From a virus (lineage: Duplodnaviria; Caudoviricetes), in IMG/VR virus record IMGVR_UViG_2930578203_000001, positions 57,299 to 121,298 of that record: a DNA stretch of 64,000 nucleotides, one strand, 5' to 3'. This document shows positions 5,601 through 28,577 of the stretch, in pieces. The position numbers were made by a program, and so were the translations under genes. The notes beneath the pieces are model-generated. The model did no database searches. It saw nothing but the letters and a program-made list of their open reading frames with translations, and was not told the origin of the DNA. How positions within the stretch are numbered: position 1 is the first letter of the stretch; every line of letters starts with the position of its first letter.

Positions 5601-8600
5601 GACCGACGACGTCAAGGCGGCCCGCAAGGAACGCATGGCCGCGCTGGAGGCCGAGCAGAACCGCCGCAGCTCCACGCCGGAGGTCGAGCAGCTCGTCGCC
5701 CGCGTCGACAACCCCGACGACAACGGCATGATCAGCATCGGCGGCGGCAGCGATTACGGCTACGTCGACTACCGGGACCAGACGCACGGGCACACGACCC
5801 GCGAGATCGGGTGGACCTGGGGCAAGCACAGTTGGGGGCACGCAGACACCGCCTATCCCTCCCGCGCCGCAGCTCTGGCAGCGATGGTCCAGGCGTACGA
5901 CAACGACCCCGACACCCGAGGTGAGCGCACCTGGGGCCGTAAGCGCCCCGTGTTCGTGCCGAAGATGTTCGTCGAGCTCTACCAGAACGAGCGTCTTCGC
6001 GACCGGCTCGCCGGCGCCAGCGAGGAACGGCAGTACCTCTACAGCCTGTTCCGGGACCGGTACGGCTGGGACGACGGCGTGAACCCCCTGGTGCCCAGCA
6101 ACAAAAAGGGCCACCACATCAAGGGCCGGAAGCTGTGGGTGCCCGAAGGCCTCCTCGCCGAACTGAACCGGGTGACGGAGGAGCTGTCCCGGGACATGTC
6201 CGTGCGGGCCGCGGACCGGGACGCGGACAGTTCCGACCGCCAGAAGGCCAAGACCCGGCTCGCGTCCATCAACGTGGCTCTGCACGGCATTGAGGCGCAG
6301 CGCGAGTCAGTCCGCAAGAATGGCGGGGACGACGACCGAAAGGTCATCTCCCGCGAGGAGATCGAGGCACAGCAGGCCGCACTCCGTGCAGCGCTGGGAG
6401 GCGACGATGACGAACATGTTCAGTCCGATGGTCCGGGATCACTGGCGGACGTACCGGCCCAAGGAGTGGGCGGCGATGACCGATCCGGAGGCGTTCGTCG
6501 AGACGAAGGCCAGGGAGATCGAGACTCAGATTCTCAAGGCCGAGGAGGCGCTGGAGAAGACCGTTCCGGAGCCGACGGAGTACGAGGAGCAGGTCGGCCG
6601 GCACAAGCAGATCAGGGCGGACGCAACAGCGATGGTCCTGGCGGATCTTCTGCCGGAGCCGGAGCCCGAGGCGGAGAAGGCGCCGGAGCAGACGCCGATG
6701 GAGCAGCACCTGCAGGAGATCAGGGACCTGATGTACGACGCGTAGCGCGGTTCCGGCCTAACCCGGCCGACGCGCCCAAGGGCGCCCGCGCGCGTGCGAC
6801 GGCCAACGTCGAGGCCATCCGCGTCCTCAAGAAGCTGGAGGCCGAGAACCGGCCGGCCACCGACGAGGAGCGCCGCATCCTCGCCCGCTGGTCCGGCTGG
6901 GGCTCGGTACCGATCCTCTTCGCCAACGAGCCGAACGAGAAGGAGCCCCGCTACCAGCAGGGCGGCACCCGGTACGGCAAGTTCGCCAAGGACCACGAGC
7001 GGTGGTCCGAGTACAGCGACATTCGCAGCGAGCTGCAGCGCGTGCTCACGCCTGTGGAGTTCCGGCAGGCATCCCGCGGCGTGCTGTCCATGCACTACAC
7101 GCCGCAGCCCATCGCCGAGGCGATGTGGGAAGGCCTTCGGGCATTCGGCTTCGACCGCGGCGACGTCCTTGAAGCCGGCTCCGGCGCGGGCACTTTCTTC
7201 GGCGTCGCTCCGGACGGCGCCCGCCTGACCGGCGTCGAACTGGACCCGACCACGGCCCGGATCGCTCAGGCGATTTACCCGCATGCCAACGTCCTCAACG
7301 AGTCTTTCGCGGAGACCGACGCCCAGCCGGGCACCTTTGACGCCGCCATCGGCAACGTGCCCTTCGCCCGGGTCCCGTTCGATGACAAGCGGTACCCGGC
7401 AGAGAGCCTTCACAACGGCTTCGTCACCAAGGAGATCGCCCTCGTCCGGCCCGGCGGCATCACCGCCGTCATCACCTCCCGCCAGACCCTCGACTCCAAG
7501 GGCGACAAGGCCCGCCGCCAGATGGCCAAGTACGGCGACCTGGTCGGCGCCGTGCGCCTGCCCTCCGGCGTCTTCACCGACGCCGGCACCGGGGTCACCA
7601 CCGACGTCCTCGTGTTCCGCCGCCGCGAGGACGGCACCGAGCCGGCCGACACGTCATGGCTGGACGCCCCTGAGCGGGACATCAACGGCACCGCACACCA
7701 CATCAACGCCTACTTCGACGAGCACCCCGAGCACATCCTCGGCACGCTGACCATGCAGTCCGGCCCGTACGGGCCCGAGGTGACCGTCAAGGGCGACCCG
7801 GCCAAGGCCGCCGAGCAGCTTCGAGCCGCGCTCGACGACATCGCCACCAAGGCGAAGGCCGACGGCCGCGGCTACGAGCCGCACCCCGACGGCGACAACC
7901 GGCCTCCGGTACAGCTCCAGACGGCCCGGGAGAAGCACGCGAACGACTGGACCGGCCGCCTCTACGAGGGCGATGACGGCCAGTTTTACCAGCACGTCAA
8001 CGGTGCCGAACCGGTCCTGCTGGAGCCCGCCGACGGCAACACCGCCCAGCTTCGCGGCCTCATGCAGCTCCGCGACGTCGCCGCCGAACTGCGCGAACTG
8101 GACCGGAAGAACGACGAGGAGGAGCGCGCCGAGGCTCTGCGCGCCCAACTCCGCGACCTGCACGCCGCCTACGTCGCCGAGTACGGCCCCCTGTCCAAGC
8201 CGGGCCAGCACCGCACCCAGGGCGGCCGCCCGACGGCGTGGGGCTACTTCCGGGCCGACCCGGACGCCGCGGCAGTCCTCGCTCTGGAACGGTGGGACGC
8301 CAACAAGGGCGAACCCGTCCTCTCCCGCGTCTTCACCGAGCGCGCCGCGGCCCGTCGACAGCCGCTCTCCTCGACCAACGATCCGAAGGCGGCCCTGGCC
8401 GCGGTCGTCGCCGCCAAGGGCGAAGTGGACCTCGGCGAGATCGCCCGGCTTCTCGACGTCACCCCGCAGGAAGCGGTGAAGCGCCTCGGCAACGAGGTCT
8501 TCACCGACCCTGAGACCGGCCGCCTCGAGCTGGCCAGCGCCTACCTGTCCGGCGCCGTCCGCGACAAGCTCGACGCCGCCCGCAAGGCCGCCGAGCGCGA

Positions 8601-11600
8601 CCCGGCGTATGCGGTCAACGTGGCCGCGCTGGAGGCCGTTCAGCCGCCGGACCGCACCATCGGCCAGTTCACCCCGGAGATGGGCGCCCACTGGACGCCG
8701 CCGGAACTTCTACAGGGCTTCCTGCGCGAGTACCTGGGCGACCGCACACTCCGTGTCGCGCATGACGACCGGTACGGCTGGATTCTCAACACCGGCCGCG
8801 TGCCCGAGGCCAACAACGTCATGTACGGCGTTCCGGCCGTCGAGCCCGACCCGGATAACGGCATCAAGGGCAACAAGGGCAAGAACGCCGTGGAGATCGC
8901 CCGCGCGATCCTCGGCTTCGGCTCGCTGACCGTCTACGAGGACGACAAGCGCAAGGAAGTCGACGAGGCGACCTCCCGTCTGATCCGGCAGAAGGCCGAC
9001 CAGATGCGGGCCGAGTTCGCCAAGTACGCCACGGCGAACGCTGATCGGCTGAGCGTCCTCACCGACTCGTACAACCGCATCATGAACGGGCACATCGTCC
9101 GTTCGTACGAGGGCATGTCGCCCACGCTGGAGGGCTTCACCCCCGACCGGAACCCCCACCCCTGGCAGCGTTCCGGCGCGGCCCGGATGCAGTTCGAGCG
9201 GGGCGTGATCCTCGCCCACGAGGTGGGCCTCGGTAAGACGTCCACGCTCGTCATGGGTACCCAGGCCCTCAAGGCGTCCGGGCAGATCGAGAAGCCCATG
9301 GCCGTGGTGCCGAACCACCTCGCGCGCCAGTGGTACAACGAGGCCCGGTGCCTGTACCCGAACGCCGATATCCACCTGATCACCTCGGCGGACCTGGCCG
9401 GCGACCGGCGCGGCAGCACGCTGGAGTGGCTGCGCGCCAACAGGCCGGATCTGGTGATCTTCACTGAAGAGGCGTTCGGCTCGATCAAGATGAGCCCGGA
9501 GGCTCAGGACGAGTACGAGTTCCGGGAGCTGGAGGCGCTGCGCGAGCAGCTTGACCGCCAGTACGAGGACGCCGACAACCCGAACCACCCGTTCATCGTC
9601 GCGAAGATCGAGCAGCGCATTGCGACGGTCAGCAAGAACATCAACAAGAACGCCGCCCCGATGCGGCGACCGGGTGAGACGTACTGGGACGACCTCGGAT
9701 TCGACTACTTCGTCGTCGACGAGGCTCACCGGTACAAGGGCGTTGGCTTCCGCTCCAAGGAGGGTGGCGGCGACAAGGCGTCCATCCGCGGCGTCGACCT
9801 GCATCAGAAGACGAGCGACCTGCACCGCCGCCGTCAGGGCCGTGCCACGATCACGCTCGCCACCGGTACGCCGCTGTCGAACAGCATCAGTGAGCAGTTC
9901 ACCATGCTGATGTTCGCGGCGCCGTGGGTGCTGGACGCCTACAAGGCGGGCGCCCCCGACCTGTGGGCCAACACCTTCGGTCGCAAGACCCTGCGCATCG
10001 AGAACGCCCCCGACGGCTCCGGCCTGCGCGTCGTGGAGCGGTTCTCCGAGTTCCACAACAAGCGCGCCATGAAGACCATGTGGGGCCTGGTCGCGGACAC
10101 CAAGCGCGGTGACGACGTCGGCATTCCCCGTCCGAAGCTCAGGGGCGGCAAGCCGAACCTGATCATGGTCGACGCGACGCCCGACCAGAAGAAGCGTCTG
10201 AAGGGGCTCGTCGCCCGCGGTCGCGCGATCCACAACGGTGAGGTCGACCGCCACCAGGACAACATGCTCGCGGTGTCCAACGAGGGCACCAGCGTGGCCC
10301 TCGACCCGCGGCTCATCGACGCCAAGGCCCTGGCCGGCAACAAGCTGAAGGCCGTCGCGGACCGGCACATCGAGCGCTACCACCAGCACAAGGACCGGCT
10401 CTATCCGGTCGCCCTCGACAGCCTCGTCAACCACCCGGTTCCGGGTGCTCTCCAGATGATCTTCCTGAACGAAGGCGTCCCGGGAGGAAAGAACAAGGGC
10501 AACTTCGACGCTTACGCCGAACTCAAGCGGCTCATGGTCGCGGGCGGCATCCCCGCGGACAAGATCGCCTTCGTCCAGGACGCCAAGAAGTCCGGCAAGC
10601 CCGAGGACATGACGGAGCTGTTCCGGAAGGCCCGCGAAGGCGAAATCGCGGTCCTCATCGGCTCCAGCGCCGTCGCGGGTACGGGCATGAACGCCCAGGA
10701 CCGCATGATCTCCCTCTCGCACGTCGACCTCGACTGGGGCGCCGCGCAGATGGAGCAGCGCAACGGCCGCATCCTGCGGTACGGCAACCTGAACCCCGAA
10801 GTCGAGATCGACATCTACGCGACCAAGGGCTCCATGGACGGCTGGAAGGCCGGATTCGTCGCAGCCAAGGCCGAGGGCTTGATCGACATTCAGCGGCCGG
10901 AGCCGGAAGACGGCGACTCCAGCGACGTTGTCCAGGAGATCGACGGCGCCGAGTTCGACTACGAGACGATGGAAGCCGAGATCGGCGGCAACCCCTTCAT
11001 GAGCCAGCTCATGAAGGCGAAGCGCCGTCTCAAGGATCTGGAGATCGACCAGCACAACGAGGCCGCCGAGCGTATCCGCCGCGCCGAAGCCCTCGATGCG
11101 CTGCGCCAGGAATCCCAGGCCACCCGCGACGGCATCCACCGCCGCGAGCAGGCCCTGCCCCGCATCCAGGAGGCCGACGACCGGTTCCGTATGACCATTG
11201 GCGGCTCCCCGTACGGCGAGCGCTCCGACGCCGGCAAGGCCCTGCACCGCCAGATCACCTCCCGCCTCCTGGAGCACAACCGCGAGGGCCTGAGTGACTG
11301 GCACATCCTTGGCCAGTTCCGCGGCTTGGACTTCGGTGTCCGCACCGAGAAGACAGCGGACGGCAAGCTCGTCGCGCACGTCGGCTTCCCCGACCTGCGG
11401 CAGTCCGACTTCGAGCGGACCGTGGAGGACTTGCAGAAGAAGGGCGCCGGGTCGGGCATGATCACCCGCCTCGGCAACGCCCTCGACAAGGCGCCCGCGT
11501 TGCAGGAGTCGGACCGGGCCAAGGTGCCGGAGCTGGACGAGCAGATAGCCCTGCTCCAGTCCGCGCACGCGGCCGCAGACCTCACCCCGCAGATCGACCA

Positions 11601-20017: not shown

Positions 20018-20076
20018 TTCAGGAGCTTGCACAATTGCGCAAGAACGATCTTGGTTCGGGGTGGGGCGGGCGTGGC

Positions 20077-20110
20077 CGGGACACAAGCGGCCCCGCCCGT
20101 CATCCTCCGC
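20077..20110 (+). promoter_or_regulatory. Late-promoter-like motif (copy 2)
   Basis: CGGGACACAAGC...CATCCTCCGC, GTG at 20113. Confidence 0.55.
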
Positions 20111-20112
20111 CC

Positions 20113-20718
20113 GTGACCAGATACGGATTCGCCATCAAGGCTCTCCCCAAGGGCGGTAAGCCGTTCGGGGACGAAGAAGACGACGAGCAGCCCGAGGGCA
20201 CCGAGGAGGAGACGCTCGAGGGCGACGACCCCGCAGCAGCACTCGAGGACCCTTCCGCTGACATGGGCCAGGACCCCGCGGCGCCGCCCGAGGACCGGGC
20301 CGCGGCCCTGGAGGAACCAGCCGCCGAACCGCCCGCAGAGGGAGCCGAGCCCCCGGCCGAGGGCGAGGAGCCGGTCGACGTGCCGGAGCCGCCTGCCGAC
20401 GACGCCCGGCCGTGGGCGGGCGACATGTACGACGAGGGCAGCGAGACCGACCCGGCCGACTCCTTCTCCGCGTACACCGGCAGCAACGGAGAACAGGCTT
20501 GGTTGGATCGGGCCCCAGACGGCACACTGACCGGGTGGGTCAGGGACGGCACGGGCCAGGTGTGGCGCTACACCGATCCGGACGCGTGGGCGGTCGACGT
20601 GGACGGCGCGCACATGACCCGCACGCACAGCCAGGCCGACGAACCCTCCGCCCCGCCAGCGGACGCCCCACCCGGCAACCGCGGCGTACAGGACTCGATG
20701 TTCCAGCAAGGGAGCTGA
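20113..20718 (+). CDS. Acidic hypothetical head-module protein
   Basis: D/E/P-rich N-half, small Trp-rich C-terminal domain. Confidence 0.7.
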   Translation: MTRYGFAIKALPKGGKPFGDEEDDEQPEGTEEETLEGDDPAAALEDPSADMGQDPAAPPEDRAAALEEPAAEPPAEGAEPPAEGEEPVDVPEPPADDARPWAGDMYDEGSETDPADSFSAYTGSNGEQAWLDRAPDGTLTGWVRDGTGQVWRYTDPDAWAVDVDGAHMTRTHSQADEPSAPPADAPPGNRGVQDSMFQQGS

Positions 20719-20719
20719 C

Positions 20720-20929
20720 GTGCAGTTGACCCGCAGCACCGCCCTCGCGCTCCAGCAGGAGGGCAAGGCCGCCTTTGAGGCGGGCGACCCCGCTGACTCC
20801 AGCCCGTACAACAGGTTCGGCAACGCGGAGCAGCAGTTCGGCTATCAGTTCTGGACCCGCGGCTACATCACGGCGCGTTCGGCCGCTGAGGGCGCCCAGG
20901 AACCTGCAGGAGCCAGCGCAGGACGTTAG
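20720..20929 (+). CDS. Rmf/CrpP-fold-like small protein
   Basis: EGKAAFEAG...SPY...FWTRGY matches the G..A...G....[C/S]PY....W..G[W/Y] pattern. Confidence 0.6.
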   Translation: MQLTRSTALALQQEGKAAFEAGDPADSSPYNRFGNAEQQFGYQFWTRGYITARSAAEGAQEPAGASAGR

Positions 20930-20953
20930 CCAGACGCGAACGGCACGGTGCCC
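20919..20953 (+). promoter_or_regulatory. Late-promoter-like motif (copy 3)
   Basis: CAGGACGTTAGC...CACGGTGCCC upstream of the protease gene. Confidence 0.5.
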
Positions 20954-20988
20954 GGCGGCCCACTGTCCACCGCCGGAGGTTCCCCGCC

Positions 20989-22908
20989 GTGCCGAGCGCT
21001 CCACCCACCAGATCGTCACACCCGAACACCCTGCGAGGCACCAGCCGGGCAATCTACGCCGTCACTGGCGTGGTCGACGAGGTCAACGACCTCATCGTCC
21101 CCGGCGCCTTCGCTCACACCCTGGCCACCCGTCGCGTCAAGGCCGTATGGCACCACGAATGGAAGGACGCCGTCGGCGTCGTCCTGCACGTCGAGGAGTG
21201 GCTACCCGGCGACCCCAGGTTCGCCGACGTCCCCGACTGGCCCGCCGAGGCCGGCGCCCTGGTCGCAACCGTCGAGTACAACCGGCGTACCAGCAAGGGC
21301 CGCGACACCTACGAGCAGGTCAAGCAGTGGTACGAGCACGGCGAAGCCGCGTTCTCCATCGGCTACCGCGTGCCCGCCGACGGAGCCACCCGCCGCGGTG
21401 ACGGCGTCCGCGTCATCCACCGCCTCGACCTGTTCGAAGTGAGCCCCGTCCTGCACGGCGCGCACCCCATGACCCGGGCGCTCGAGGTCAAGGCTGCGGC
21501 CAACCCCGGCATGGAGTACAAGGCGACGCCCAACGTCATCGAACTCGACGCAGGGACGGACGAGGACCGCATCAAGGTCGCCGGACTCGTCCTCAAGGCC
21601 GAGGACACCGGCCGCGTCCTGCTCATCCAGCGCGCCCTCGACGACGAGGACCCGGATGCCGGAACCTGGGAGTTCCCCGGCGGGCACCTGGAGAAGGACG
21701 AAGACGCGCTCGCCGCAGCGCTGCGCGAGTGGCAGGAGGAAACCGGCGCCGAACTCCCCGGATCGGCAAGCGTTGTCGGCTCCTGGACTTCCCCGAACGG
21801 CATCTACCGAGGGTTCGTCGCCGTAGTCCCCGGCGAGTCCCACATACCGCTGAACCGGCCCCCCAGCGAACGACCGGTGACCAACCCCGACGACCCCCAG
21901 GGCGAAGCGCCAGAGGTCACCGCCTGGTGGCCGATCACCGCCCTCCCCGACATGTCCCTGCTCCGGCCTGCATGCCGTGAGACCCCCTGGTCCCTCCTGG
22001 CAGGCGCCACCCTGCCGCAGGGCCCGGCGGCCAAGAAGCCCAGAGCCGAGGCCGAGCAGTTCGCCGCCGGCGTCATGAACACCTACGCCGCTCTCGGCAC
22101 CACGGAAGCGAAGTCCGCGCGCGCCGCAGTGGCCTCCGCCCGCTCCGTCCTGCCGCGCATCGAGCACAAATCCGCCCGCTCCACGGTCGCCGAGGCCAAG
22201 AGCCATCCCACGCCCCTTCCGGAGGCTTCTGTGATGTCCCCCAACCCCCTGCTCGAGTCCCAAGAGCAGTTCCGTGCCCGTCTCTCGGACAGCGTCCGCG
22301 AACTCCTCGACCAGGACGGCCAGACCTGGACGTGCATTGAGGGCACCTACCCGGACCGCGTCATCGTCTCCGTGCACAGCGAGGACGAGCGGCGCAGCAG
22401 CCACTACGCCATCCCGTACACGGCCACCGCGAACGGCGAGATCAGCCTCGGCACCCCTAAGTCCGTCGAACTCGCCACCGTCGTACTCCCGGAGGGCGCC
22501 AGCGCGCAGCGCACGGCCACCGACGAGGAAGACGTCGACGCCCGCGTCGTGCAGCCCACCGTGGAAGCCCTCGCCGACGCCACCGCTCGCATCAACACCA
22601 CCGAGGCCGACCCGGACCAACTCACGGGCGTACGGGACAAGGTGCGCACGCTGATCGCCGCCCTGTCCGCGAAGGGCCTCGACACCGCCGACGACACCGA
22701 AGCCCCGAAGGGCGCCCCCCGGGACCCCACGGCCGGCCCCATCGGCATGGACCTGTGGGACGAGTACTCGTTCAACGACGACGAGGACGAGGACGAAGTG
22801 CCCATGGAGGACGCTCCGCCGCCCGCCGAGGCGGACGTCGACGACGAGGACACGGTCCGGCTCGACGAGGACAAAGTGAAGTCGGCGCTCGCCATGATGC
22901 GGAGCTGA
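20989..22908 (+). CDS. HK97-type prohead protease fused to a NUDIX hydrolase and an acidic scaffold-like tail
   Basis: VVDEVNDLIVPGAF, WHH, FSIGY, LFEVSPVLHGAHP; intact Nudix box GGHLEKDEDALAAALREWQEETG. Confidence 0.9.
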   Translation: MPSAPPTRSSHPNTLRGTSRAIYAVTGVVDEVNDLIVPGAFAHTLATRRVKAVWHHEWKDAVGVVLHVEEWLPGDPRFADVPDWPAEAGALVATVEYNRRTSKGRDTYEQVKQWYEHGEAAFSIGYRVPADGATRRGDGVRVIHRLDLFEVSPVLHGAHPMTRALEVKAAANPGMEYKATPNVIELDAGTDEDRIKVAGLVLKAEDTGRVLLIQRALDDEDPDAGTWEFPGGHLEKDEDALAAALREWQEETGAELPGSASVVGSWTSPNGIYRGFVAVVPGESHIPLNRPPSERPVTNPDDPQGEAPEVTAWWPITALPDMSLLRPACRETPWSLLAGATLPQGPAAKKPRAEAEQFAAGVMNTYAALGTTEAKSARAAVASARSVLPRIEHKSARSTVAEAKSHPTPLPEASVMSPNPLLESQEQFRARLSDSVRELLDQDGQTWTCIEGTYPDRVIVSVHSEDERRSSHYAIPYTATANGEISLGTPKSVELATVVLPEGASAQRTATDEEDVDARVVQPTVEALADATARINTTEADPDQLTGVRDKVRTLIAALSAKGLDTADDTEAPKGAPRDPTAGPIGMDLWDEYSFNDDEDEDEVPMEDAPPPAEADVDDEDTVRLDEDKVKSALAMMRS

Positions 22909-23017
22909 GTCGCACGACCCGGTCTCACCCCTGCTCCCGCACCCTGTGCGCGTCATCCCGAAAAACCGCAGGTCAAACCTATGCGCTGCCCGCTCTTGAC
23001 TCCCTGAGCGGGCAGCG

Positions 23018-23052
23018 CGCGACGTTAACCCCTCTCTCCCTCTTCACTCCCG
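23018..23052 (+). promoter_or_regulatory. Late-promoter-like motif (copy 4)
   Basis: CGCGACGTTAAC...TTCACTCCCG upstream of the capsid gene. Confidence 0.6.
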
Positions 23053-23133
23053 CCTGGCGTTGAGGCTGTCCCGGTGCTGGCCGGGCGGAGCGACGCACGT
23101 CAACCGCACCCCAGCACCAGGGAGAGAGCAGCA

Positions 23134-24423
23134 ATGCCCGACAACGCTCGCATCGAGGAACTGCAGAAGCAGCTCCAGGCCAAGAGCGCCGAGGCCGAGG
23201 AGATCAGCAAGTCCTTCAAGGTCGAGGACGGCGGGTTCGTCGTCTCCACCGAGCAGGCAACCAAGTTCCGCAAGGTCTCCAGCGAGGCGCAGGAGATCAA
23301 GGCGCTCATCGACGCCGAGCAGGGCCTGGTCGAGATCAAGCAGTACCTCGACGCCCCGGAGACCACGCCGGCCGCGGCCGCGCACTACGGCAAGACCCCG
23401 ACCATGGAGGAGAAGTCTCTGGGCGACATGTTCGTCGACTCCGACTCCTTCAAGCGCGCCAGCGCCGCAGGCTTCGACGATCGCCCGTACATCCGCGCCG
23501 CGATGGAAGGGAAGTCGATCTTCTCCCTGAGCGCCGGCACGGTCACGCACCAGACCCTCGGCAGCGTCCAGAACCTGGGCATCGCCGAGCGGGCCTACCG
23601 CAAGTGGCACATCCGGGACCTGTTCCCGAAGTCCTCGACCAAGCAGGCCGTCCTCTACGGCGCCCGGGAGACCGGCTGGACGAACAACGCGAGGCAGGTC
23701 AAGGAACGCTACGGCGCCGACGGCACCAGCCCGGCGACCGGCGCGGACACCGACACCTGGGGCCGCGCGCCTCGGTCGAAGCTGGCCCTGACCCCGGTGA
23801 TGTACCCGGTCGCCGAGGTCGCGCACCTGATCGACGCGCACAAGAACATCCTGAGCGACGAACCGAGGCTCAAGACGTTCATCAACGGGCGCATGGTCGA
23901 GGGCGTCAAGTACCAGGAGGACTGGGACCTGCTCCACTCCGTCGGCGACGGCCAGTCCCTCACCGGCATCTACAACACCCCCGGCGTTCAGCAGTACACC
24001 GGGTTGGCGACCGACAAGTACTCGGTCCAGATCCGGCGTGCCATCACCAAGGCGCTCCTCGCCGAGTACGAGCCGACCGGCATCGTCCTGTCGCCCACGA
24101 TGTGGGAGCACGTCGAGGTCGAAGAGGACGACAACGGTGCCTTCCGCGTCGCCATCGCCGTGGCCATCGGCGCGGAGAAAAAGGTCTGGCGCCTGAACGT
24201 CGTCGAGACCACGGCCATGTCGGATGGGGACTTCCTCATCGGCGCCTTCGGCCTCGGCGCGCAGCTCCACGACAGGGAGAACGTCAGCGTCACCGTCTCG
24301 TCGGAGAACGCCGACAACTTCGAGAAGGGCCTGATCACCTTCCGCGCGGACGAGCGCCTGGCGCTCGAGGTCCCGCGGCCGGAGAGCTTCGTCATAGGCA
24401 CCTGGACCACTCCGACTGGCTGA
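23134..24423 (+). CDS. Major capsid protein (HK97 fold with delta domain)
   Basis: N-terminal coiled coil, KSLGDMF, GDG..LTGI, NFEKGLITFRADERLALEVPRPESF. Confidence 0.93.
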   Translation: MPDNARIEELQKQLQAKSAEAEEISKSFKVEDGGFVVSTEQATKFRKVSSEAQEIKALIDAEQGLVEIKQYLDAPETTPAAAAHYGKTPTMEEKSLGDMFVDSDSFKRASAAGFDDRPYIRAAMEGKSIFSLSAGTVTHQTLGSVQNLGIAERAYRKWHIRDLFPKSSTKQAVLYGARETGWTNNARQVKERYGADGTSPATGADTDTWGRAPRSKLALTPVMYPVAEVAHLIDAHKNILSDEPRLKTFINGRMVEGVKYQEDWDLLHSVGDGQSLTGIYNTPGVQQYTGLATDKYSVQIRRAITKALLAEYEPTGIVLSPTMWEHVEVEEDDNGAFRVAIAVAIGAEKKVWRLNVVETTAMSDGDFLIGAFGLGAQLHDRENVSVTVSSENADNFEKGLITFRADERLALEVPRPESFVIGTWTTPTG

Positions 24424-24837
24424 CTGCGCCGCGAGTGAGAGGGCGCTCGGGCGCCGGGGCACCCGGGACGGCCCTTGCCCGGCTCATCCCGTCTTGAGCG
24501 GTTTGAGCGTGCTGGTCGGCCACAGAAGCAGGTGAACACGGCCCCTGTAGATCATGGAGTTCTTTACCTTCAGGGTCCACAAGGGTGCCGTGTTCGTCCC
24601 GCTATCATCGCGCACCGATACTCCGCCCCTCTCGGCGCCCCGTCCTGATGAACTCCGTGGCCAAGTCATCCATCAGCAAGTCCGCAGATTGAGCGTCAAG
24701 TTGGATCCCATCGCTGATCCGCGTGGCGCGTTACCGACTGTCCTCGCTGATGGCTCCGGTGATCTATAGGATGACGGCAGCAGGTCACGACTCGATCATC
24801 ACGGCGGCCGAACGGGCATGACCAACCCGGATGGCGA

Positions 24838-25458
24838 TTACACGCCGAGCAAGCACTCCATACGAGACCAAACATAGGCCGCGACGTCTGCCTCGCTTTG
24901 GGTACAGTCGACACATAGAATCTCGCCGAAAAAATCGGCGGACCCCATAACATCGTCAAGCGATTTATATCCCGCCAAATTGTGATCACGCCCCAATTGT
25001 TCTTTGAGGCTCAACTCGGACCTGCTATTCACCCTCCCCCACAGCACATCAAATTCCGCAGAGAGATAGACTGTCAGGTCGACTGGGAATGCGCGGGCGG
25101 TATCTCTGAATAGACTCCTACCGACGTCAGACACCCCTTCATCCAAGCGGGAAATGTCGTACGGAATGAATCTGTCGAATATCACCACCTGAGAGCCACT
25201 GGCCTGGGCTATTCCAATCCTTGCGTGGGTGCGCGCAAGCCTGATGAACATGTCAGAGCATGGAGAGAGTCTATCGAATCCGCCGTCGGACCGCTTAATC
25301 ACTTGTGTCATAGCAGCGATATTGGTGGACGAATCGGCGGCACCCCTGCCAATAACCGTGCAATCAACCCGCCGCTCAGCCAATATGGCACTGATGTTTT
25401 TCACCAGCGTAGTCTTTCCGGCTCCGTCATACCCTTCCACTGCGAGGACAAACACCAT
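24838..25458 (-). CDS. Thymidylate kinase-like P-loop kinase
   Basis: LAVEGYDGAGKTT P-loop, VVIFDRF, PVDLTVYL, WGRVNSR lid region. Confidence 0.85.
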   Translation of the reverse strand: MVFVLAVEGYDGAGKTTLVKNISAILAERRVDCTVIGRGAADSSTNIAAMTQVIKRSDGGFDRLSPCSDMFIRLARTHARIGIAQASGSQVVIFDRFIPYDISRLDEGVSDVGRSLFRDTARAFPVDLTVYLSAEFDVLWGRVNSRSELSLKEQLGRDHNLAGYKSLDDVMGSADFFGEILCVDCTQSEADVAAYVWSRMECLLGV

Positions 25459-25473
25459 CCCCGTCCCTCCAGT

Positions 25474-26421
25474 TCAGTCTTCCGTGATAGATATACGAGA
25501 CGTCACATATCGCTCGACAAAGAGCGTGACCAGGAATGTCACCACCAAGGCGACGATTACAGCAACGCTGACGAATACAGCAACGTTCAAAAACTCGCGA
25601 TGCCGAATTGATTGCAACAGCGGGATACCGAGTGACGCCAGAAATGTCCCAACAGCCGCCACCATGACGGTTACGAGGGAGAGACGAAATGAACTCTTGG
25701 CCAGGAGAAGCTTTCCGGCTCGCACAGCCAAGAATCGGTGCATCGCCGACCGGTAGTGCAGGACTGTGAGCTGAGCGACGAGGTTCCGGTAGAACTGGCG
25801 ACCATTTGGGGGTACATGGTAGAACTGCCTCCGCAGTTCACTGTCAGAGTCGTAGATCATCTGAAACGAGTCCATTCGGTGAAATGTACACCGCGTGAAG
25901 ATCCCCTTCGTGTTGTCAAGACGTTGCTCGTACGGCCCTAGCTTGTCCTTCTTCCGGTCATGCTGAAAGCTCCTCAATAGCAGCTGGCTGGGTTGAGCAA
26001 AGAAAGAATCGATCCGCGCTCGGTTCTTTCCACCCGACTGCAGGTCGTACTGCTTAAGTGCAGAGTTCAGGTCAACCAAAGTCAGCAAGTGGTCATTGGC
26101 CTCTAGGTTCGTCTTAGCGTCGACCCCCTCTCGCCACTGCTTAGGCTGCATACTCTTCGAAGCGTATGTGTAGTCCACGATAATGAAGTCGTAGCGGCGG
26201 CGACATACATCGATGAAATCCTGAAGCGTCTCCGCAGAGAACTTGTACCCGTCCGGTGTGTCATCGACGACGACCTTGAGTGTTTCAATTACCGGTTCGA
26301 CCCTCCTACCGTCAACCTCAACCGATTGTCCGCGCAGAGTTTCAGCCAGTCTGCGCAGAACGACCTCGTCGTCATCAATGATAAGGGTGCGAAAGCTTAC
26401 CTTCTTGACGTGTCCCATCAC
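25474..26421 (-). CDS. Receiver(REC)-like domain protein with two C-terminal TM helices
   Basis: TLIIDDDEVVLRRL and YDFIIVDY receiver signatures; hydrophobic LSLVTVMVAAVGTFLASLGIPLL and VAVFVSVAVIVALVVTFLVTLFV. Confidence 0.75.
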   Translation of the reverse strand: MMGHVKKVSFRTLIIDDDEVVLRRLAETLRGQSVEVDGRRVEPVIETLKVVVDDTPDGYKFSAETLQDFIDVCRRRYDFIIVDYTYASKSMQPKQWREGVDAKTNLEANDHLLTLVDLNSALKQYDLQSGGKNRARIDSFFAQPSQLLLRSFQHDRKKDKLGPYEQRLDNTKGIFTRCTFHRMDSFQMIYDSDSELRRQFYHVPPNGRQFYRNLVAQLTVLHYRSAMHRFLAVRAGKLLLAKSSFRLSLVTVMVAAVGTFLASLGIPLLQSIRHREFLNVAVFVSVAVIVALVVTFLVTLFVERYVTSRISITED

Positions 26422-26431
26422 GGATCTCCTT

Positions 26432-27544
26432 CTACCTGCGGTAATCGGGTTCCTTGAGCTCGTGCGCGGCCATGGATGGCTGCCACTGCAAATTCCTCAG
26501 ATTCCGGGCATAGGTTTGAAAGAATTGCGGATCCTGGTACAGCGATACACTGAAGCCTGAAGTCAACGTTTTCTTCAGAGCCCTCACGATTGCACTGACG
26601 AGCCCTGGATTCTGGTAGTCGATTCCCACCGGGACATCAGAGACTCCCCGGTCCAAAGCGAAGTAGAACTGGGCTATATCCTTCAGGCCGAGGCAAATTT
26701 GACGTACCTGATATCGGTCAATCTCGTCGAATATTGCAGGGCTCTCGGCGAACGGTATTATCTCGTTTCTGAACAGCGATTCATACCTGTGGGCGAAGGA
26801 TTCGAACTCGGCGTGGCTTGTTACAAACGGGCAGGCGAACGAGACTCTGGTTTCGAAAGGTGCCACCGCACTCGCCATGCACTCAACCCACTCGGGATGC
26901 AGCGATAGGTACCTCATCCCATGGTTGCCGAGTTCGGGGTTTTTCTCTACCGAGTCGAACAGATACTGCCCTAGCACCGGGTCGTCACTCCGGATATCAA
27001 TTCCTCGCAAGACCACCTGAATCACATCGGGCAATTTGTCGACGATGCGCGCAAGAGAGGATGACATCCAGTGTGACAGCAGGTCTCGCCTGTAGCAGAT
27101 TTCCGGGTCTTCTACGACTGCCTTATACATTAGGTGTTCGGCACGCACAAAGATCGTTTCGACACGTTTAAGATCCAACCCCGCGAGATCACTTTCGTCA
27201 AATACGGCAGCCTGGAAGGACCCCGGAAAATTCTGGTATTCCTCACTGTTCGTGAAACCAGAGTTCACTCTTGCGGGAGCAAGGGTCCAAGAGTCCTGTA
27301 TGTAGTCGAGTCGCTCCACCCTATGAAGGGGTATTCCCTTGATTCGGCAAATGACCTCGGCGTGACTATTGGCACCCTTCTCAAGAAAGAAAATCCCTTT
27401 GACGTTCTCGATGAACCTGACATCGAGATCCTCTAGCTTGTGGAGATAGAGGACAACGTCCTGGCCTGGGATATGGCGTCCCGACTGGATTGCACATGGG
27501 ATTCCGTCAAGATCAACCACGCAGCTACCCTCCGGGATCAACAT
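26432..27544 (-). CDS. Compact PEP-utilising enzyme (Enzyme I-like): phospho-His swivel domain plus PEP-binding barrel
   Basis: KGANSHAEVICRIKGIP (cf. GGxTSHxAIxARxxGIP); VRAEHL, LRGIDIRSDD, EKNPELGNHGMRY (cf. ExNPxLGxRGxR), GLKDIAQFYFALDR (cf. GTNDLxQYxxAxDR). Confidence 0.82.
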   Translation of the reverse strand: MLIPEGSCVVDLDGIPCAIQSGRHIPGQDVVLYLHKLEDLDVRFIENVKGIFFLEKGANSHAEVICRIKGIPLHRVERLDYIQDSWTLAPARVNSGFTNSEEYQNFPGSFQAAVFDESDLAGLDLKRVETIFVRAEHLMYKAVVEDPEICYRRDLLSHWMSSSLARIVDKLPDVIQVVLRGIDIRSDDPVLGQYLFDSVEKNPELGNHGMRYLSLHPEWVECMASAVAPFETRVSFACPFVTSHAEFESFAHRYESLFRNEIIPFAESPAIFDEIDRYQVRQICLGLKDIAQFYFALDRGVSDVPVGIDYQNPGLVSAIVRALKKTLTSGFSVSLYQDPQFFQTYARNLRNLQWQPSMAAHELKEPDYRR

Positions 27545-27829
27545 TCAGATCAGGCTCCGCGGGGTCATGGCCGAAGCAGCGGCAACGACCGGCGGGGAGT
27601 CGAGGCAAACGCTTGGAGCGGACTAGGAGGTACCGTTTGGAACTTCCAATCAATGTGATCTTCCAAGAGAGTTGCATCCCGGTCTTGATTGAGGGCGAGA
27701 TACCCAATCGAATGCGGGCTCAATCTCGGTCCGCAGTACGCGAAGGGCTGGCCAGGGCCGTCCTCCGTGCCCGCATGATCGTCGGGGACCGTGACCTGGC
27801 CGTCGCCAACGACAGCCTCCGCAGCTGCC

Positions 27830-28035
27830 CTAATCGGGGCAGGAGCCTGGGTGGCGGACGCGACACACTGCTCGGTCCGGTAGCGCCTGGAGTTTGACGG
27901 GCCAGTTCTCCTGATCGCCCTTGACGGTCAGGAGATAGTGGGCGCCGCGCTCGTGCAGGTAGGTGGCGTGGGTCCGCTGTACGGGCAAGCGTCCACCGTG
28001 ATGACGGCACCGATCAGGTCGGCGTCCTCGATCAT
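27830..28035 (-). pseudogene. ISAs1-family transposase remnant (frameshifted fragment)
   Basis: 'QRTHATYLHERGAHYLLTVKGDQ' and, in another frame, 'PDLIGAVITVDA' resemble the ISAs1 segment D..GAVVTADA...HYLLTVKGNQ. Confidence 0.65.
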
Positions 28036-28046
28036 GCAACCGCGGG

Positions 28047-28081
28047 CGCGACCGTAGCGCTCTCCGTCCCCCATCCTTCCG
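28047..28081 (+). promoter_or_regulatory. Late-promoter-like motif (copy 5)
   Basis: CGCGACCGTAGC...CATCCTTCCG. Confidence 0.55.
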
Positions 28082-28115
28082 CGGCCACCACACCGGAAGC
28101 AGCGGAAGGAAACCC

Positions 28116-28577
28116 ATGGGGCTCTACCGAGAGAACGGGCAGCGGATCACGAAGGCGGCGTTCCCGGCCGTCGCCCTCACCGACCCGCCCAAGCGCATCA
28201 CCGAGAACGTCTACCAGACCGAGCCGTACGGCCGCGGCGACGGCCGCCCCGAGGGCTCCCGCCGTCACCTGCTTTACGAGGCCGGGGACATGGTCCCTCA
28301 GTCCGTGATCGACCGGCTGTTCACTGCGGCGACGATCGGCACCGTCACACCGGCCACCGGCCCGGCCGCGGGCGGTACAACCGTCACCATCACCGGCACC
28401 GCCCTCGACGGCGTCTCTGCGGTGAACTTCGGCGCGACCGCTGGGACTGAACTCAACGTCGTCTCCGCGACCGAGCTGCGCGTCAAGACGCCCGCGGGCG
28501 CGGCCGGAGCGGTGAACGTCGTCCTCGTCGACGACGGCGGCAACATCACCAAGACGGGCGGCTTCACCTACGCGTGA
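28116..28577 (+). CDS. IPT/TIG (Ig-like) domain virion protein
   Basis: TVTPATGPAAGGTTVTITGT...VNFG...VVSATELRVKTPAG...FTY. Confidence 0.88.
   Translation: MGLYRENGQRITKAAFPAVALTDPPKRITENVYQTEPYGRGDGRPEGSRRHLLYEAGDMVPQSVIDRLFTAATIGTVTPATGPAAGGTTVTITGTALDGVSAVNFGATAGTELNVVSATELRVKTPAGAAGAVNVVLVDDGGNITKTGGFTYA

What the first reader, a model, noticed from the sequence alone, without database searches (positions are those of the whole stretch)
24838..27544. Low-GC three-gene operon: Enzyme-I-like PEP phosphotransferase + receiver/2TM protein + thymidylate-kinase-like protein (candidate new defence or signalling system)
Seen: three tightly spaced minus-strand genes (gaps of 10 and 15 bp), visibly more AT-rich than the phage, wedged antisense between the capsid and IPT genes next to an ISAs1 scar. 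Gene 1 (370 aa) keeps the phospho-His motif (GANSHAE..CR..GIP) and PEP-barrel motifs, but lacks Enzyme I's HPr-binding helical domain and the PPDK/PEPS nucleotide-binding domain. Its GTND-to-GLKD change and missing CGE cysteine show divergence. Gene 2 has receiver signatures (IIDDD, DFIIVD) fused to two C-terminal TM helices. Gene 3 is a TMPK-like kinase. Known: prophage morons are enriched in anti-phage genes, and 2TM effectors and nucleotide-metabolising enzymes are common in them. Inference: a PEP-fuelled His-to-Asp relay, or a PEP/nucleotide sensor, gating a membrane effector, with the kinase sensing or altering dNMP pools during infection. I do not recognise this combination as a named system.
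Basis: partly seen in the sequence, partly recalled or inferred. Interest (0 to 1): 0.9.

Follow-up and report, generated by a model that had tools for sequence, protein, structure and literature searches.

The report
Candidate three-gene antiphage cassette in prophage
A rare, horizontally moving trio of genes carried by a Streptomyces-type prophage looks like a new bacterial antiviral switch, in which a phosphate-transfer enzyme of the sugar-uptake type and a nucleotide-kinase-like protein probably control a membrane-damaging protein; none of this has been tested at the bench.

Summary
Three tightly spaced minus-strand genes (370, 315 and 206 aa) lie in a 53% GC insert in a 70% GC prophage, between the capsid and IPT/TIG genes. 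Phage Gilgamesh carries different cargo in the same slot.

- **g1** is a minimal PEP-utilising enzyme: His swivel plus PEP-type TIM barrel, no third domain, catalytic Cys position replaced.
- **g2** has no Pfam match but folds as a receiver domain. The acidic pair, acceptor Asp and Ser/Thr are kept in 62-64 of 64 relatives. It ends in two membrane helices.
- **g3** is dTMP-kinase-like.

The trio recurs in the same order in a Micromonospora genome and a Synechococcus MAG. In the MAG it lies in a low-GC island with type I R-M and GmrSD.

The wider g2 family has 114 cluster representatives. In three of them a TIR domain replaces the membrane helices, a swap typical of immune effectors.

No PADLOC, PHROG or literature match to the combination was found.

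Best reading: a new abortive-infection-type defence cassette. The PEP-to-His-to-Asp wiring is inferred, not shown. This scan noted the stretch before only on this same genome.

The parts
26432..27544 (-). g1: minimal PEP-utilising-type phosphotransferase (His swivel domain about 30-75 with invariant H61; TIM barrel about 110-365; no third domain)
   Evidence: ORF. Pfam PF02896 E 4.3e-7 and PF00391 E 6.6e-5. H61 is invariant in 7 of 7 sequences. Profile hits PEP synthase and Enzyme I structures at E 1e-8 to 9e-6. Model pLDDT 80. Foldseek finds the PEP-binding domains of PEPS/EI/PPDK at E 1.8e-12.
25474..26421 (-). g2: receiver-like switch domain (1 to about 235; D16, D17, D83, S151, R167) fused to two C-terminal membrane helices (238-271, 273-307); presumed effector
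   Evidence: ORF. Model pLDDT 82. VIA-align top rows are receiver domains, Z 9.4-8.2. hhalign to 30 canonical receiver domains gives 89% probability, E 2e-6, with controls at 1% or less. Conservation counts, hydrophobic segments.
24838..25458 (-). g3: dTMP-kinase-like P-loop protein (P-loop G9-T17, D95-R96, R142, R146)
   Evidence: ORF. Pfam PF02223 E 5.4e-8. Profile of 4 homologues hits solved thymidylate kinases at E 7e-10. Invariant columns. phrog_761 'thymidylate kinase' E 2.9e-8.
24465..28103 (.). Variable cargo slot between capsid and IPT/TIG genes; collinearity with Streptomyces phage Gilgamesh breaks here
   Evidence: blastn shows window 20022-24464 and 28104-28577 collinear with Gilgamesh, and nothing between. 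Gilgamesh has gp54-56 in the slot. The IPT gene is 72% identical to gp57.
27906..28024 (.). Short ISAs1-like remnant upstream of g1
   Evidence: hit H3: query positions 362-480 match at 71.7% under an annotated ISAs1 family transposase. No Pfam family for the ORFs here.

Best explanation
The three genes are one horizontally mobile operon, carried here as a prophage moron. Most likely it protects the lysogen against other phages by an abortive-infection-type mechanism.

g2 is the effector. It has a cytoplasmic receiver-like switch domain with a conserved acidic phosphate/Mg pocket (D16, D17, D83, S151). This domain controls a C-terminal two-helix membrane module, presumably by phosphorylation-driven oligomerisation that damages the membrane.

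g1 is the phosphodonor. Its TIM barrel loads His61 from PEP or a related phospho-compound. Because g1 lacks any acceptor-binding domain of its own, the swivelling His domain then delivers the phosphate in trans, most plausibly to Asp83 of g2.

g3 is a dTMP-kinase-like nucleotide binder. It is proposed to couple the relay to the nucleotide state of the cell, either as the infection sensor or as a phosphate sink that keeps g2 off in uninfected cells.

Shown here: gene structure, folds, conserved residues, conserved synteny, mobility, island context and effector-module swapping. Inferred: defence function, donor identity, His-to-Asp transfer, direction of the switch and the role of g3.
For: 1. 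Linkage. g1-g2-g3 occur in the same order in L002 (Micromonospora sp. BL4; 45, 60 and 45% identity) and L004 (Synechococcus MAG; 35, 38 and 36%). The gaps are small or overlapping. g2-g3 also adjoin on metagenome contig L007. g1 hit P0005 and g2 hit P0010 both list a longest contig of 28734, which may be a further pair.

2. Mobility. Each copy lies in a low-GC patch of a high-GC genome. The window copy fills a slot that holds other genes in phage Gilgamesh.

3. Immune context. In the Synechococcus MAG the trio lies in a roughly 14.7-kb low-GC island with HsdM, HsdS, an AAA_13-like gene, HsdR and GmrSD.

4. Effector logic. The g2 family has 114 cluster representatives at E <= 1e-3. Of the 92 that are at least 280 aa long, 86 end in hydrophobic segments. 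Three members (P0040, P0082, P0068) carry TIR domains instead. These TIR parts match PADLOC TIR models: CBASS SAVED-TIR, ThsB, PDC-S35 and PycTIR. All three share D83, S151, R167 and D184 with g2.

5. Phospho-acceptor site. In 64 family members D16 is kept in 62, D17 in 63, D83 in 64 and S/T151 in 63. hhalign places D16/D17 and D83 on the acidic pair and acceptor Asp of 30 canonical receivers, and controls fail.

6. Donor. g1 keeps the phospho-His motif (H61 in 7 of 7) and the barrel. It has no cis acceptor domain.

7. Precedent. Detocs shows that receiver-gated effectors, including transmembrane ones, defend against phages (passages read).
Against: - There is no experimental datum of any kind.
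- Only one of the four loci with visible flanks lies beside known defence genes. The Micromonospora copy lies among sugar-metabolism genes in the 10 ORFs scanned. The Mycobacteriales MAG has g1 alone, and g2 was not found in that (incomplete) genome.
- g2 does not reach Pfam Response_reg. It gave 0 hits, and only 1 of 64 relatives hit, at E 0.01.
- g2 lacks the conserved Lys after strand 5. That place holds D184.
- Structural Z scores for receivers (9.4) are within 1 of a TIR domain and flavodoxin-like proteins (8.8-8.3).
- The g1 barrel has H, K and Y where the aligned PEP synthases have R, N and C, so PEP may not be the substrate.
They may pair with ordinary histidine kinases.
- A His-to-Asp transfer from a PEP-utilising enzyme has, to my knowledge (recall), never been described.
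Confidence: 0.45

Rival explanations
1. Nucleotide-messenger defence. g3 (NMP-kinase-like) and g1 (phospho-His enzyme acting like a PEP-driven nucleoside-diphosphate kinase) together make a phosphorylated, possibly non-canonical, nucleotide on infection. The acidic Mg pocket of the g2 receiver-like domain binds it as a ligand and opens the membrane module. The neighbouring Nudix genes would clear the signal.
For: g1 lacks a nucleotide-binding domain and g3 could supply one in trans. Nudix genes abut the cassette in 2 of the 5 loci holding cassette genes: upstream in L004 and downstream in L007. The sensor-domain plus TM-or-TIR architecture of the g2 family is that of messenger-activated effectors; P0082 hits the Pycsar TIR effector model. 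Kongming shows that linear nucleotides made with the help of nucleotide kinases can be immune signals (abstracts seen in the listing).
Against: The residues kept across the g2 family are exactly the receiver phosphorylation set, DD, D and S/T. That fits covalent phosphorylation better than ligand binding. The two Nudix genes share only the generic Nudix box (35% over 55 aa), lie on opposite sides of the cassette, and are absent from the window and L002 cassettes. No cyclase or base-modifying enzyme is present.
Confidence: 0.2
2. Not immunity. The cassette is a small metabolic or signalling module, for example PEP-state-dependent control of a membrane protein or lysogenic conversion of envelope or transport functions, or an addiction (toxin-antitoxin-like) module that merely stabilises the mobile DNA carrying it.
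For: The Micromonospora copy lies among ThuA, GFO/IDH/MocA, DUF993 and xylose-isomerase-like genes. PEP-utilising enzymes and dTMP kinases are classic metabolic families. The g2 family was found in only the centre genome of two samples of 401 genomes, which fits a selfish, sporadic element.
Against: The cassette is its own low-GC islet inside those sugar genes, so the neighbours are an insertion site, not partners. TIR substitution for the membrane module and the R-M/GmrSD island point to conflict systems. An addiction module and an abortive-infection system are not mutually exclusive.
Confidence: 0.2
3. Phage counter-defence or phage nucleotide metabolism. The prophage uses the kinase and the phosphotransferase to remodel nucleotide pools or to destroy host immune signals for its own benefit.
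For: The cassette lies in a provirus. Phages often carry dNMP kinases (phrog_761 hit) and Nudix enzymes; the prohead protease here contains a Nudix domain.
Against: g1 and g2 hit no PHROG. g2 has no tblastn match in 50,697 phage records or in the three IMG/VR scans. The relative Gilgamesh lacks the cassette. The cassette is antisense to the late genes and of foreign GC. The other copies lie in chromosomal settings.
Confidence: 0.05

Closest known systems
Detocs (defensive two-component system: DtcA kinase, DtcB buffer receiver, DtcC receiver-effector)
   Same: A three-gene operon in which a receiver-type domain with a phosphate-accepting Asp appears to gate an exchangeable cell-killing module. 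Detocs effectors include transmembrane forms (passages read). A third protein may buffer the relay.
   Different: The cassette has no histidine kinase, no TPR sensor and no stand-alone receiver. The presumed donor is a PEP-utilising-type His enzyme and the third gene is a P-loop dTMP-kinase-like protein. No PADLOC model, Detocs models included, hits g1, g2 or g3 meaningfully. g2 lacks the receiver Lys and carries large insertions.
PTS Enzyme I / PEP synthase / pyruvate phosphate dikinase (PEP-utilising enzymes)
   Same: g1 has the swivelling phospho-His domain followed by the PEP-binding TIM barrel. Foldseek gives E 1.8e-12 to the PEPS and EI barrels, and TM 0.69 over phosphorylated full-length EI 2hwg. 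The Mg-ligand-type E and D positions and the DR motif are kept in the alignment.
   Different: g1 is only 370 aa. It has no HPr-binding (PF05524) or ATP-grasp (PF01326) domain. H208, K288 and Y336 stand where the aligned enzymes have R, N and C. NCBIfam equivalog scores are far below cut-off, 19 bits against 583-740.
Messenger-activated effectors of Pycsar/CBASS/Thoeris type (sensor domain + TM or TIR)
   Same: The g2 family shows the same modular swap: one N-terminal sensor domain joined to 2 TM helices, 6-7 hydrophobic segments, or a TIR domain.
   Different: The sensor domain is receiver-like, not cNMP-binding, SAVED, STING or SLOG. No cyclase is encoded. PADLOC models match only the TIR parts.
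Kongming (dITP signalling that depends on nucleotide kinases)
   Same: A nucleotide-monophosphate-kinase activity is part of an immune pathway (abstracts in the listing).
   Different: In Kongming the kinase is the phage's and the effector is a SIR2 complex. Here the kinase-like gene is in the cassette, and there is no deaminase, SIR2 or HAM1-type gene.
Bacterial thymidylate kinase (Tmk)
   Same: g3 has the P-loop, the D-R motif after strand 3, the lid arginines and the overall length of Tmk. Pfam is above cut-off, and solved Tmk structures are hit at E 7e-10.
   Different: TIGR00041 scores 35 bits against a cut-off of 83. The segment after the D-R motif and the region 37-70 are family-specific. 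The substrate is unknown.

Membership tests
PEP-utilising enzymes (EI/PEPS/PPDK) | PEP-binding TIM-barrel domain (PF02896) | tested here: met
   29.8 bits against cut-off 22.8. Foldseek E 1.8e-12 to 8a8e and 2xz9. Profile E 1.1e-8 to 9dae.
PEP-utilising enzymes (EI/PEPS/PPDK) | Mobile domain with catalytic His (PF00391) | tested here: inconclusive
   22.9 bits, just under the 23.1 cut-off. H61 is invariant in 7 of 7. The His region aligns to the ..SHAAI.. segment of PEP synthases only at domain i-E-values of 41-220. 1 of 7 homologues carries a precomputed PF00391 hit.
PEP-utilising enzymes (EI/PEPS/PPDK) | A third, acceptor or nucleotide-binding domain (PEP-utilisers_N or PPDK_N) | tested here: not met
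   No such Pfam hit at E <= 1. The protein is 370 aa, and residues 1-28 are modelled as disordered.
PEP-utilising enzymes (EI/PEPS/PPDK) | Active-site Cys of the ..CG(Q/E).. motif and the GTND / NP.LG.RG residues (roles recalled from the EI/PPDK literature) | tested here: not met
   The alignment places Y336 on the Cys, K288 on the N, and H208 on the R. Q337, K288 and H208 are invariant in 7 of 7.
PEP-utilising enzymes (EI/PEPS/PPDK) | PEP-dependent autophosphorylation on His | not testable with these tools
   Needs a 32P-PEP assay.
Response-regulator receiver (CheY-like) domains | (beta-alpha)5 flavodoxin-like fold | tested here: met
   Model pLDDT 82. VIA-align top rows are receivers (2qzj Z 9.4, rmsd 3.1, 120 of 121 aligned), but a TIR and flavodoxin-like proteins are within 1 Z. 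The ESM Atlas structure rows are mostly Response_reg clusters, TM 0.35-0.44 by query.
Response-regulator receiver (CheY-like) domains | Acidic pair after strand 1 and phospho-acceptor Asp after strand 3 | tested here: met
   D16 in 62 of 64, D17 in 63 of 64, D83 in 64 of 64. hhalign to 30 receivers from G001/G003 gives probability 89.3%, E 2.1e-6, and aligns these residues. The reversed and 8 shuffled templates give 1% or less.
Response-regulator receiver (CheY-like) domains | Ser/Thr after strand 4 | tested here: met
   S or T at position 151 in 63 of 64, directly after predicted strand 145-150. hhalign did not align this half reliably, so the placement rests on the model.
Response-regulator receiver (CheY-like) domains | Conserved Lys after strand 5 | tested here: not met
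   After strand 178-183 the family has D184 (D in 54 of 64, N in 6), not K. The only conserved basic residue is R167 (R in 59 of 64, K in 4) at the start of helix 4.
Response-regulator receiver (CheY-like) domains | Match to Pfam PF00072 at its cut-off | tested here: not met
   0 hits for g2 at E <= 1. 1 of 64 relatives hits, at E 0.01. The PF00072 genome search of G001 and G003 at E <= 1e-15 lists 80 places, and none is a g2 locus.
Thymidylate kinase | Pfam PF02223 at its cut-off, P-loop, D-R motif, lid Arg | tested here: met
   33.2 bits against cut-off 27. Two of the three other homologues pass it as well; the L004 homologue scores 24.4, below it. G9, D11, G12, G14, K15, T17, D95, R96, R142 and R146 are invariant in 4 of 4. 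That these motifs define Tmk is recalled.
Thymidylate kinase | Equivalog-level match (TIGR00041 dTMP kinase) | tested here: not met
   35.2 bits against cut-off 83.25.
Detocs | DtcA histidine kinase, DtcB receiver, DtcC receiver-effector, all three required | tested here: not met
   The three genes give no PADLOC Detocs hit. The best hits are RexB at E 0.0084 on the TM part of g2 and P-loop-only hits for g3. No HisKA or HATPase gene lies in the cassette.
Any system in PADLOC-DB v2.0.0 | Significant match of the component proteins | tested here: not met
   g1 has 0 families. g2 has RexB only, E 0.0084 over 62 residues. The best hit for g3 is PDC-M51B at E 6e-5 over residues 1-27, the P-loop. 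DefenseFinder was not available.

The most novel reading that the evidence does not exclude
This would be a phosphoenolpyruvate-fuelled immune phosphorelay. A stripped-down Enzyme-I/PEP-synthase-like protein passes phosphate from its swivelling His directly to the Asp of a receiver-like domain that gates membrane (or, in paralogues, TIR) effectors. A dTMP-kinase-like protein ties the relay to nucleotide pools that phages disturb. It would be the first His-to-Asp transfer from a PEP-utilising enzyme, and the first use of PTS-type chemistry in antiviral defence.
Probability: 0.25. Interest if true: 0.9.

Novelty: new variant of a known kind. Interest (0 to 1): 0.72.

Why it matters
If the cassette defends, it adds two enzyme families not yet seen in immunity: a minimal PEP-utilising phosphotransferase, and a receiver-like sensor family of over a hundred clusters with TM or TIR outputs. 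It would also link central-metabolite or nucleotide status directly to a suicide effector.

It would extend the Detocs idea, that phosphorelays can serve as immune wiring, to a donor that is not a histidine kinase. It gives a small, testable three-gene system. It also shows a capsid-proximal cargo slot in Gilgamesh-like Streptomyces phages that exchanges accessory genes.

Tried and rejected
**Neighbourhoods of homologues.** This includes the Agreia, Rhodococcus, Arsenicicoccus, Neomicrococcus and Verrucomicrobiota proteins named, and the TIR-fused members. As the tool's message allowed, I went on with the search for related loci and the genome search.

**Collection scans.**
- IMG/VR scans with A1, A2 and A5 found no relative.
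- A3 was too diverse to scan with (error).
- The metagenome scan gave one short contig.

**Genome samples.**
- Two samples of 401 genomes, labelled by the tool 'class of G001' and 'phylum of G003', held the g2 family only in the centre genome. Handle G006 appears in both samples, so I cannot vouch for their taxonomic make-up.
- A1 against 301 genomes gave 48 with hits. Apart from G001, these cover only profile positions of about 132-356, in open frames of 474-1078 aa. They are the housekeeping PEP enzymes.

**Annotated collections.**
- g2 has no tblastn match in the phage or plasmid collections.
- P0045 has none in plasmids.
- P0082 matches plasmids only through its TIR part.

**Expression.** No RNA holder was listed.

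**Nudix as a fourth component.** Rejected as shown. The L004 and L007 Nudix genes share only the Nudix box. The resemblance to the phage protease's Nudix is equally generic.

**Terminal inverted repeats.** A 23-nt, 83% complementary pair (24457-24479 and 27750-27772) brackets the cassette, and one arm lies at the Gilgamesh breakpoint. A pair of the same size brackets the L002 cassette. The two pairs are unrelated in sequence, and such imperfect pairs are expected in GC-rich DNA, so I treat them as chance.

**Weak hits on the g2 C-terminus.** RexB and claudin hits were taken as hydrophobic-composition matches.

**Other readings considered.**
- Phage DNA-hypermodification kinase: rejected, because the cassette is antisense, of foreign GC, absent from Gilgamesh, and found in non-phage settings.
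- Antibiotic phosphotransferase of the rifampicin-phosphotransferase kind (recalled): considered unlikely, given the membrane or TIR effector family and the R-M island. It was not tested.

**Promoter and terminator scan.** It gave no more than shuffles do.

**Literature.** Searches found no paper that joins PEP-utilising enzymes with phage defence.
- Passages only were read of DefensePredictor, Detocs, the language-model defence preprint and the eLife conflict-systems paper.
- Only listing abstracts were seen for Kongming.
- Supplementary tables are closed. Detocs Table S5, DefensePredictor table S8 and the preprint's lists of about 216,000 candidate families may mention these families, and I could not see them.

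**Untested lead.** The ESM Atlas shows 'putative PEP-binding protein' clusters of about 400-430 aa, mostly Actinomycetota, at score 0.93-0.95 to g1.

Full report
**What is there.** The window is the right half of a 121-kb IMG/VR provirus, 93% complete by CheckV. Three minus-strand ORFs of 370, 315 and 206 aa lie at 26432-27544, 25474-26421 and 24838-25458. The gaps between them are 10 and 15 nt. GC falls to 0.52-0.55 across them, against 0.66-0.76 around. The flanking + strand genes are an HK97-type capsid protein and an IPT/TIG protein. The prohead protease upstream carries a Nudix domain.

**Relation to phage Gilgamesh.** The closest annotated phage is Streptomyces phage Gilgamesh, whose capsid is 84% identical at the protein level. 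The window is collinear with it up to 24464 and again from 28104. The IPT/TIG gene is 72% identical to Gilgamesh gp57. Between these points Gilgamesh has three + strand genes, gp54-56: one annotated metallophosphoesterase, and one with a GP88 Pfam domain. None of them has a match in the window. So 24465-28103 is a cargo slot, and the three genes are foreign cargo in it. Next to them is a roughly 120-nt piece resembling an ISAs1 transposase gene.

**g1.**
- Pfam finds the PEP-binding barrel above its cut-off and the mobile His domain 0.2 bits below it. It finds nothing else.
- Only 7 proteins, self included, came up among 5.8 billion. All are 362-434 aa and 36-45% identical.
- H61, inside a ..SH.E..CRIKGI.. 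block, is invariant in them.
- The family profile hits solved PEP synthases and Enzyme I barrels at E 1e-8 to 9e-6.
- The AlphaFold model (pLDDT 80) matches those barrels at Foldseek E 1.8e-12. It matches full-length phosphorylated Enzyme I with TM 0.69 by the query.
- In the alignment g1 has H where the synthases have the R of NP.LG.RG, K where they have the N of GTND, and Y336 where they have the Cys of CGQ. From the EI/PPDK literature (recalled), that Cys protonates the enolate.
- So g1 is a real, minimal member of the superfamily with an altered barrel. The His carrier has no built-in destination.

**g2.**
- No Pfam, NCBIfam (only noise), PADLOC or PHROG family describes it.
- Ten close homologues, self included, are 39-63% identical. 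This is more conserved than g1 or g3.
- The model (pLDDT 82) is a five-stranded alpha/beta domain (about 6-235) with a beta-hairpin insertion (39-61) and a long loop after strand 3. A long helix and two hydrophobic helices follow.
- An exhaustive structural comparison puts receiver domains first: 2qzj Z 9.4, KdpE 9.2, NtrC4 9.2. A plant TIR (8.8) and flavodoxin-like proteins are within one unit. Foldseek alone is weak, with best E 1.9e-3 to RssB.

**Is g2 really a receiver?** Sequence evidence settles the kinship better than the structure scores.
- A profile search of 1.84 billion representatives found 114 family members at E <= 1e-3, 67 of them at <= 1e-10.
- In an alignment of 64 full-length members, D16 is kept in 62, D17 in 63, D83 in 64, S/T151 in 63 and R167 in 59, with K in 4 more.
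- I built a control alignment of 30 canonical receiver domains found with PF00072 in the Micromonospora and Synechococcus genomes.
- hhalign relates the g2 N-domain to it at 89% probability, E 2e-6. It places D16/D17 on the acidic pair and D83 on the acceptor Asp. A reversed template and eight column-shuffled templates give 1% or less.
- The Lys of the receiver quintet is missing, and Pfam's own model does not reach the family.
- I therefore call g2 receiver-like, with an apparently intact phosphorylation pocket. I do not call it a certified Response_reg member.

**g3.** Pfam Thymidylate_kin is above its cut-off. Of the three other homologues, those in L002 and L007 also pass it. The one in L004 scores 24.4 bits against 27. 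The four-sequence profile hits solved thymidylate kinases at E 7e-10. The P-loop, the D-R pair and two lid arginines are invariant. The dTMP-kinase equivalog model is missed by a wide margin, so the substrate is open.

**Are the three genes a unit?** Of three genomic loci that encode a g1 relative (36 pattern matches examined), two hold all three genes in the same order.
- Micromonospora sp. BL4: g1, g2 and g3 are 45, 60 and 45% identical.
- A Synechococcus MAG: 35, 38 and 36% identical.
- The third locus, a Mycobacteriales MAG, has g1 alone in a 1.1-kb low-GC patch. g2 was not found in that incomplete genome.
- A 1.8-kb metagenome contig holds the end of g2, then g3 with no gap, then a Nudix gene.
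- g1 hit P0005 and g2 hit P0010 both list a longest contig of 28734, probably one more pair.

Every copy is a low-GC patch in a high-GC genome. The trio is thus conserved across phyla and moves horizontally as a block.

**Context.**
- In Micromonospora the islet lies among sugar-metabolism genes, in the 10 ORFs scanned.
- In the Synechococcus MAG it lies inside a roughly 14.7-kb low-GC island. The island reads Nudix, g1, g2, g3, HsdM, HsdS, an AAA_13-like gene, two small ORFs, HsdR, a 400-aa unknown and GmrSD.
- Here it is a prophage moron.
- So two of the four informative contexts are of the kind where defence genes collect.

**The strongest new clue.** Among the 92 family representatives of at least 280 aa, 86 end in hydrophobic segments. 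Three of these have 6-7 such segments. Of the six without, I scanned five. Three of those (P0040, P0082, P0068) end in TIR domains instead: TIR_2 at E 6e-23 and 2e-21, and the CAP12/Pycsar TIR at E 2.5e-29. PADLOC matches those TIR parts to CBASS SAVED-TIR, ThsB, Argonaute-TIR, PDC-S35 and PycTIR models, but matches nothing in the shared N-domain. The TIR-fused proteins keep D83, S151, R167 and D184. One sensor domain joined to either a membrane module or a TIR module is the signature of immune suicide effectors. In Detocs, exactly such swapping occurs behind a receiver domain (passages).

**How it most likely works.**

Shown:
- a His-carrier enzyme without an acceptor domain;
- a receiver-like domain with the phosphorylation residues, fused to a membrane hairpin;
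- a nucleotide-kinase-like protein;
- tight operon coupling.

Inferred:
- g1 charges His61 from PEP or a related donor and phosphorylates Asp83 of g2.
- Phosphorylation changes the oligomeric state of g2, so that the membrane hairpins breach the membrane and the infected cell dies before the phage matures.
- g3 senses or buffers, for instance by draining g1~P onto bound nucleotides until infection disturbs the pools.

The direction could equally be a dead-man switch, in which phosphorylation holds g2 off. I put 0.45 on the package 'defence cassette with g2 as gated effector and g1/g3 as its controllers'. I put about 0.25 on the specific PEP-to-His-to-Asp wiring.

**Rivals.**
- The main rival (0.2) keeps the immune reading. 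It has g3 and g1 make a phosphorylated nucleotide that g2 binds. The recurring but non-orthologous Nudix neighbours and the Kongming precedent (abstracts) speak for it. The receiver-type residue conservation speaks against it.
- Non-immune or purely selfish readings get 0.2.
- Phage counter-defence gets 0.05.

**Known or new.** No PADLOC v2.0.0 model, no PHROG (apart from the generic kinase hit) and none of my eight literature searches describes this combination. The supplements that list large candidate sets were closed. By logic it is nearest to Detocs, and by parts to Enzyme I/PEP synthase and thymidylate kinase. It fails the membership tests of each of these (see the table). I class it as a new variant of a known kind, a phospho- or nucleotide-gated abortive-infection system with unprecedented components. 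This scan had noted the stretch before only on this same genome.

**Limits.**
- There is no expression or phenotype data.
- The family is rare. It was found only in the centre genome of two 401-genome samples, so the comparative evidence rests on five loci.

Noticed in passing
window 24465-28103 versus L009 (Gilgamesh) 6357-8868: The capsid-to-IPT/TIG interval is an exchangeable cargo slot in Gilgamesh-like Streptomyces phages. Gilgamesh holds gp54 (91 aa), gp55 (annotated metallophosphoesterase, no Pfam hit here) and gp56 (GP88 domain) on the + strand. The window holds the antisense cassette instead.
   Followed up: partly
L004 7360-7968; L007 1272-1769; window 20989-22908: Nudix genes abut the cassette in two loci, upstream in the Synechococcus MAG and downstream on the metagenome contig. 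The window's prohead protease ORF also contains a Nudix domain (E 3e-17). The three share only the generic Nudix box.
   Followed up: partly
L004 10731-16981 and L010 6972-13984 (Synechococcus MAG, G003 contig 4): A roughly 14.7-kb low-GC island with a complete type I R-M (HsdM, HsdS, HsdR), an AAA_13-like gene, a 400-aa protein without a Pfam family and a GmrSD type IV restriction enzyme.
   Followed up: partly
L003 7986-9068 (Mycobacteriales MAG): A g1 homologue (41% identity) stands alone in a 1.1-kb low-GC patch, with no g2 or g3 nearby and no g2 found in that MAG. It is either a remnant or a sign that g1 can work without the others.
   Followed up: partly
window 24457-24479 and 27750-27772; L002 7538-7560 and 11044-11066: Imperfect 23-nt inverted repeats (83% complementary) bracket the cassette in both loci. 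One window arm lies exactly at the Gilgamesh homology breakpoint. The two pairs are unrelated in sequence, so this is probably chance in GC-rich DNA.
   Followed up: no
window 27906-28024: A short stretch about 72% identical to an annotated ISAs1 family transposase gene on a Streptomyces plasmid. Four other Streptomyces plasmids match nearby pieces without such annotation.
   Followed up: partly
g1 protein (window 26432-27544): The ESM Atlas lists clusters named 'putative PEP-binding protein' or 'PEP-utilizing protein' (400-433 aa; 65-140 members; mostly Actinomycetota) at feature scores 0.93-0.95 and TM 0.77. This suggests a larger family of two-domain PEP-type enzymes whose partners are unknown.
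   Followed up: no
P0089, P0095, P0118 (g2-family representatives): Three family members of 489-542 aa join the receiver-like domain to 6-7 hydrophobic segments instead of two. None has a Pfam or PADLOC family.
   Followed up: no
The genome search samples: Handle G006 appears both in the 'class of G001' and in the 'phylum of G003' sample. The samples may therefore not be restricted to the taxa that their labels suggest.
   Followed up: no
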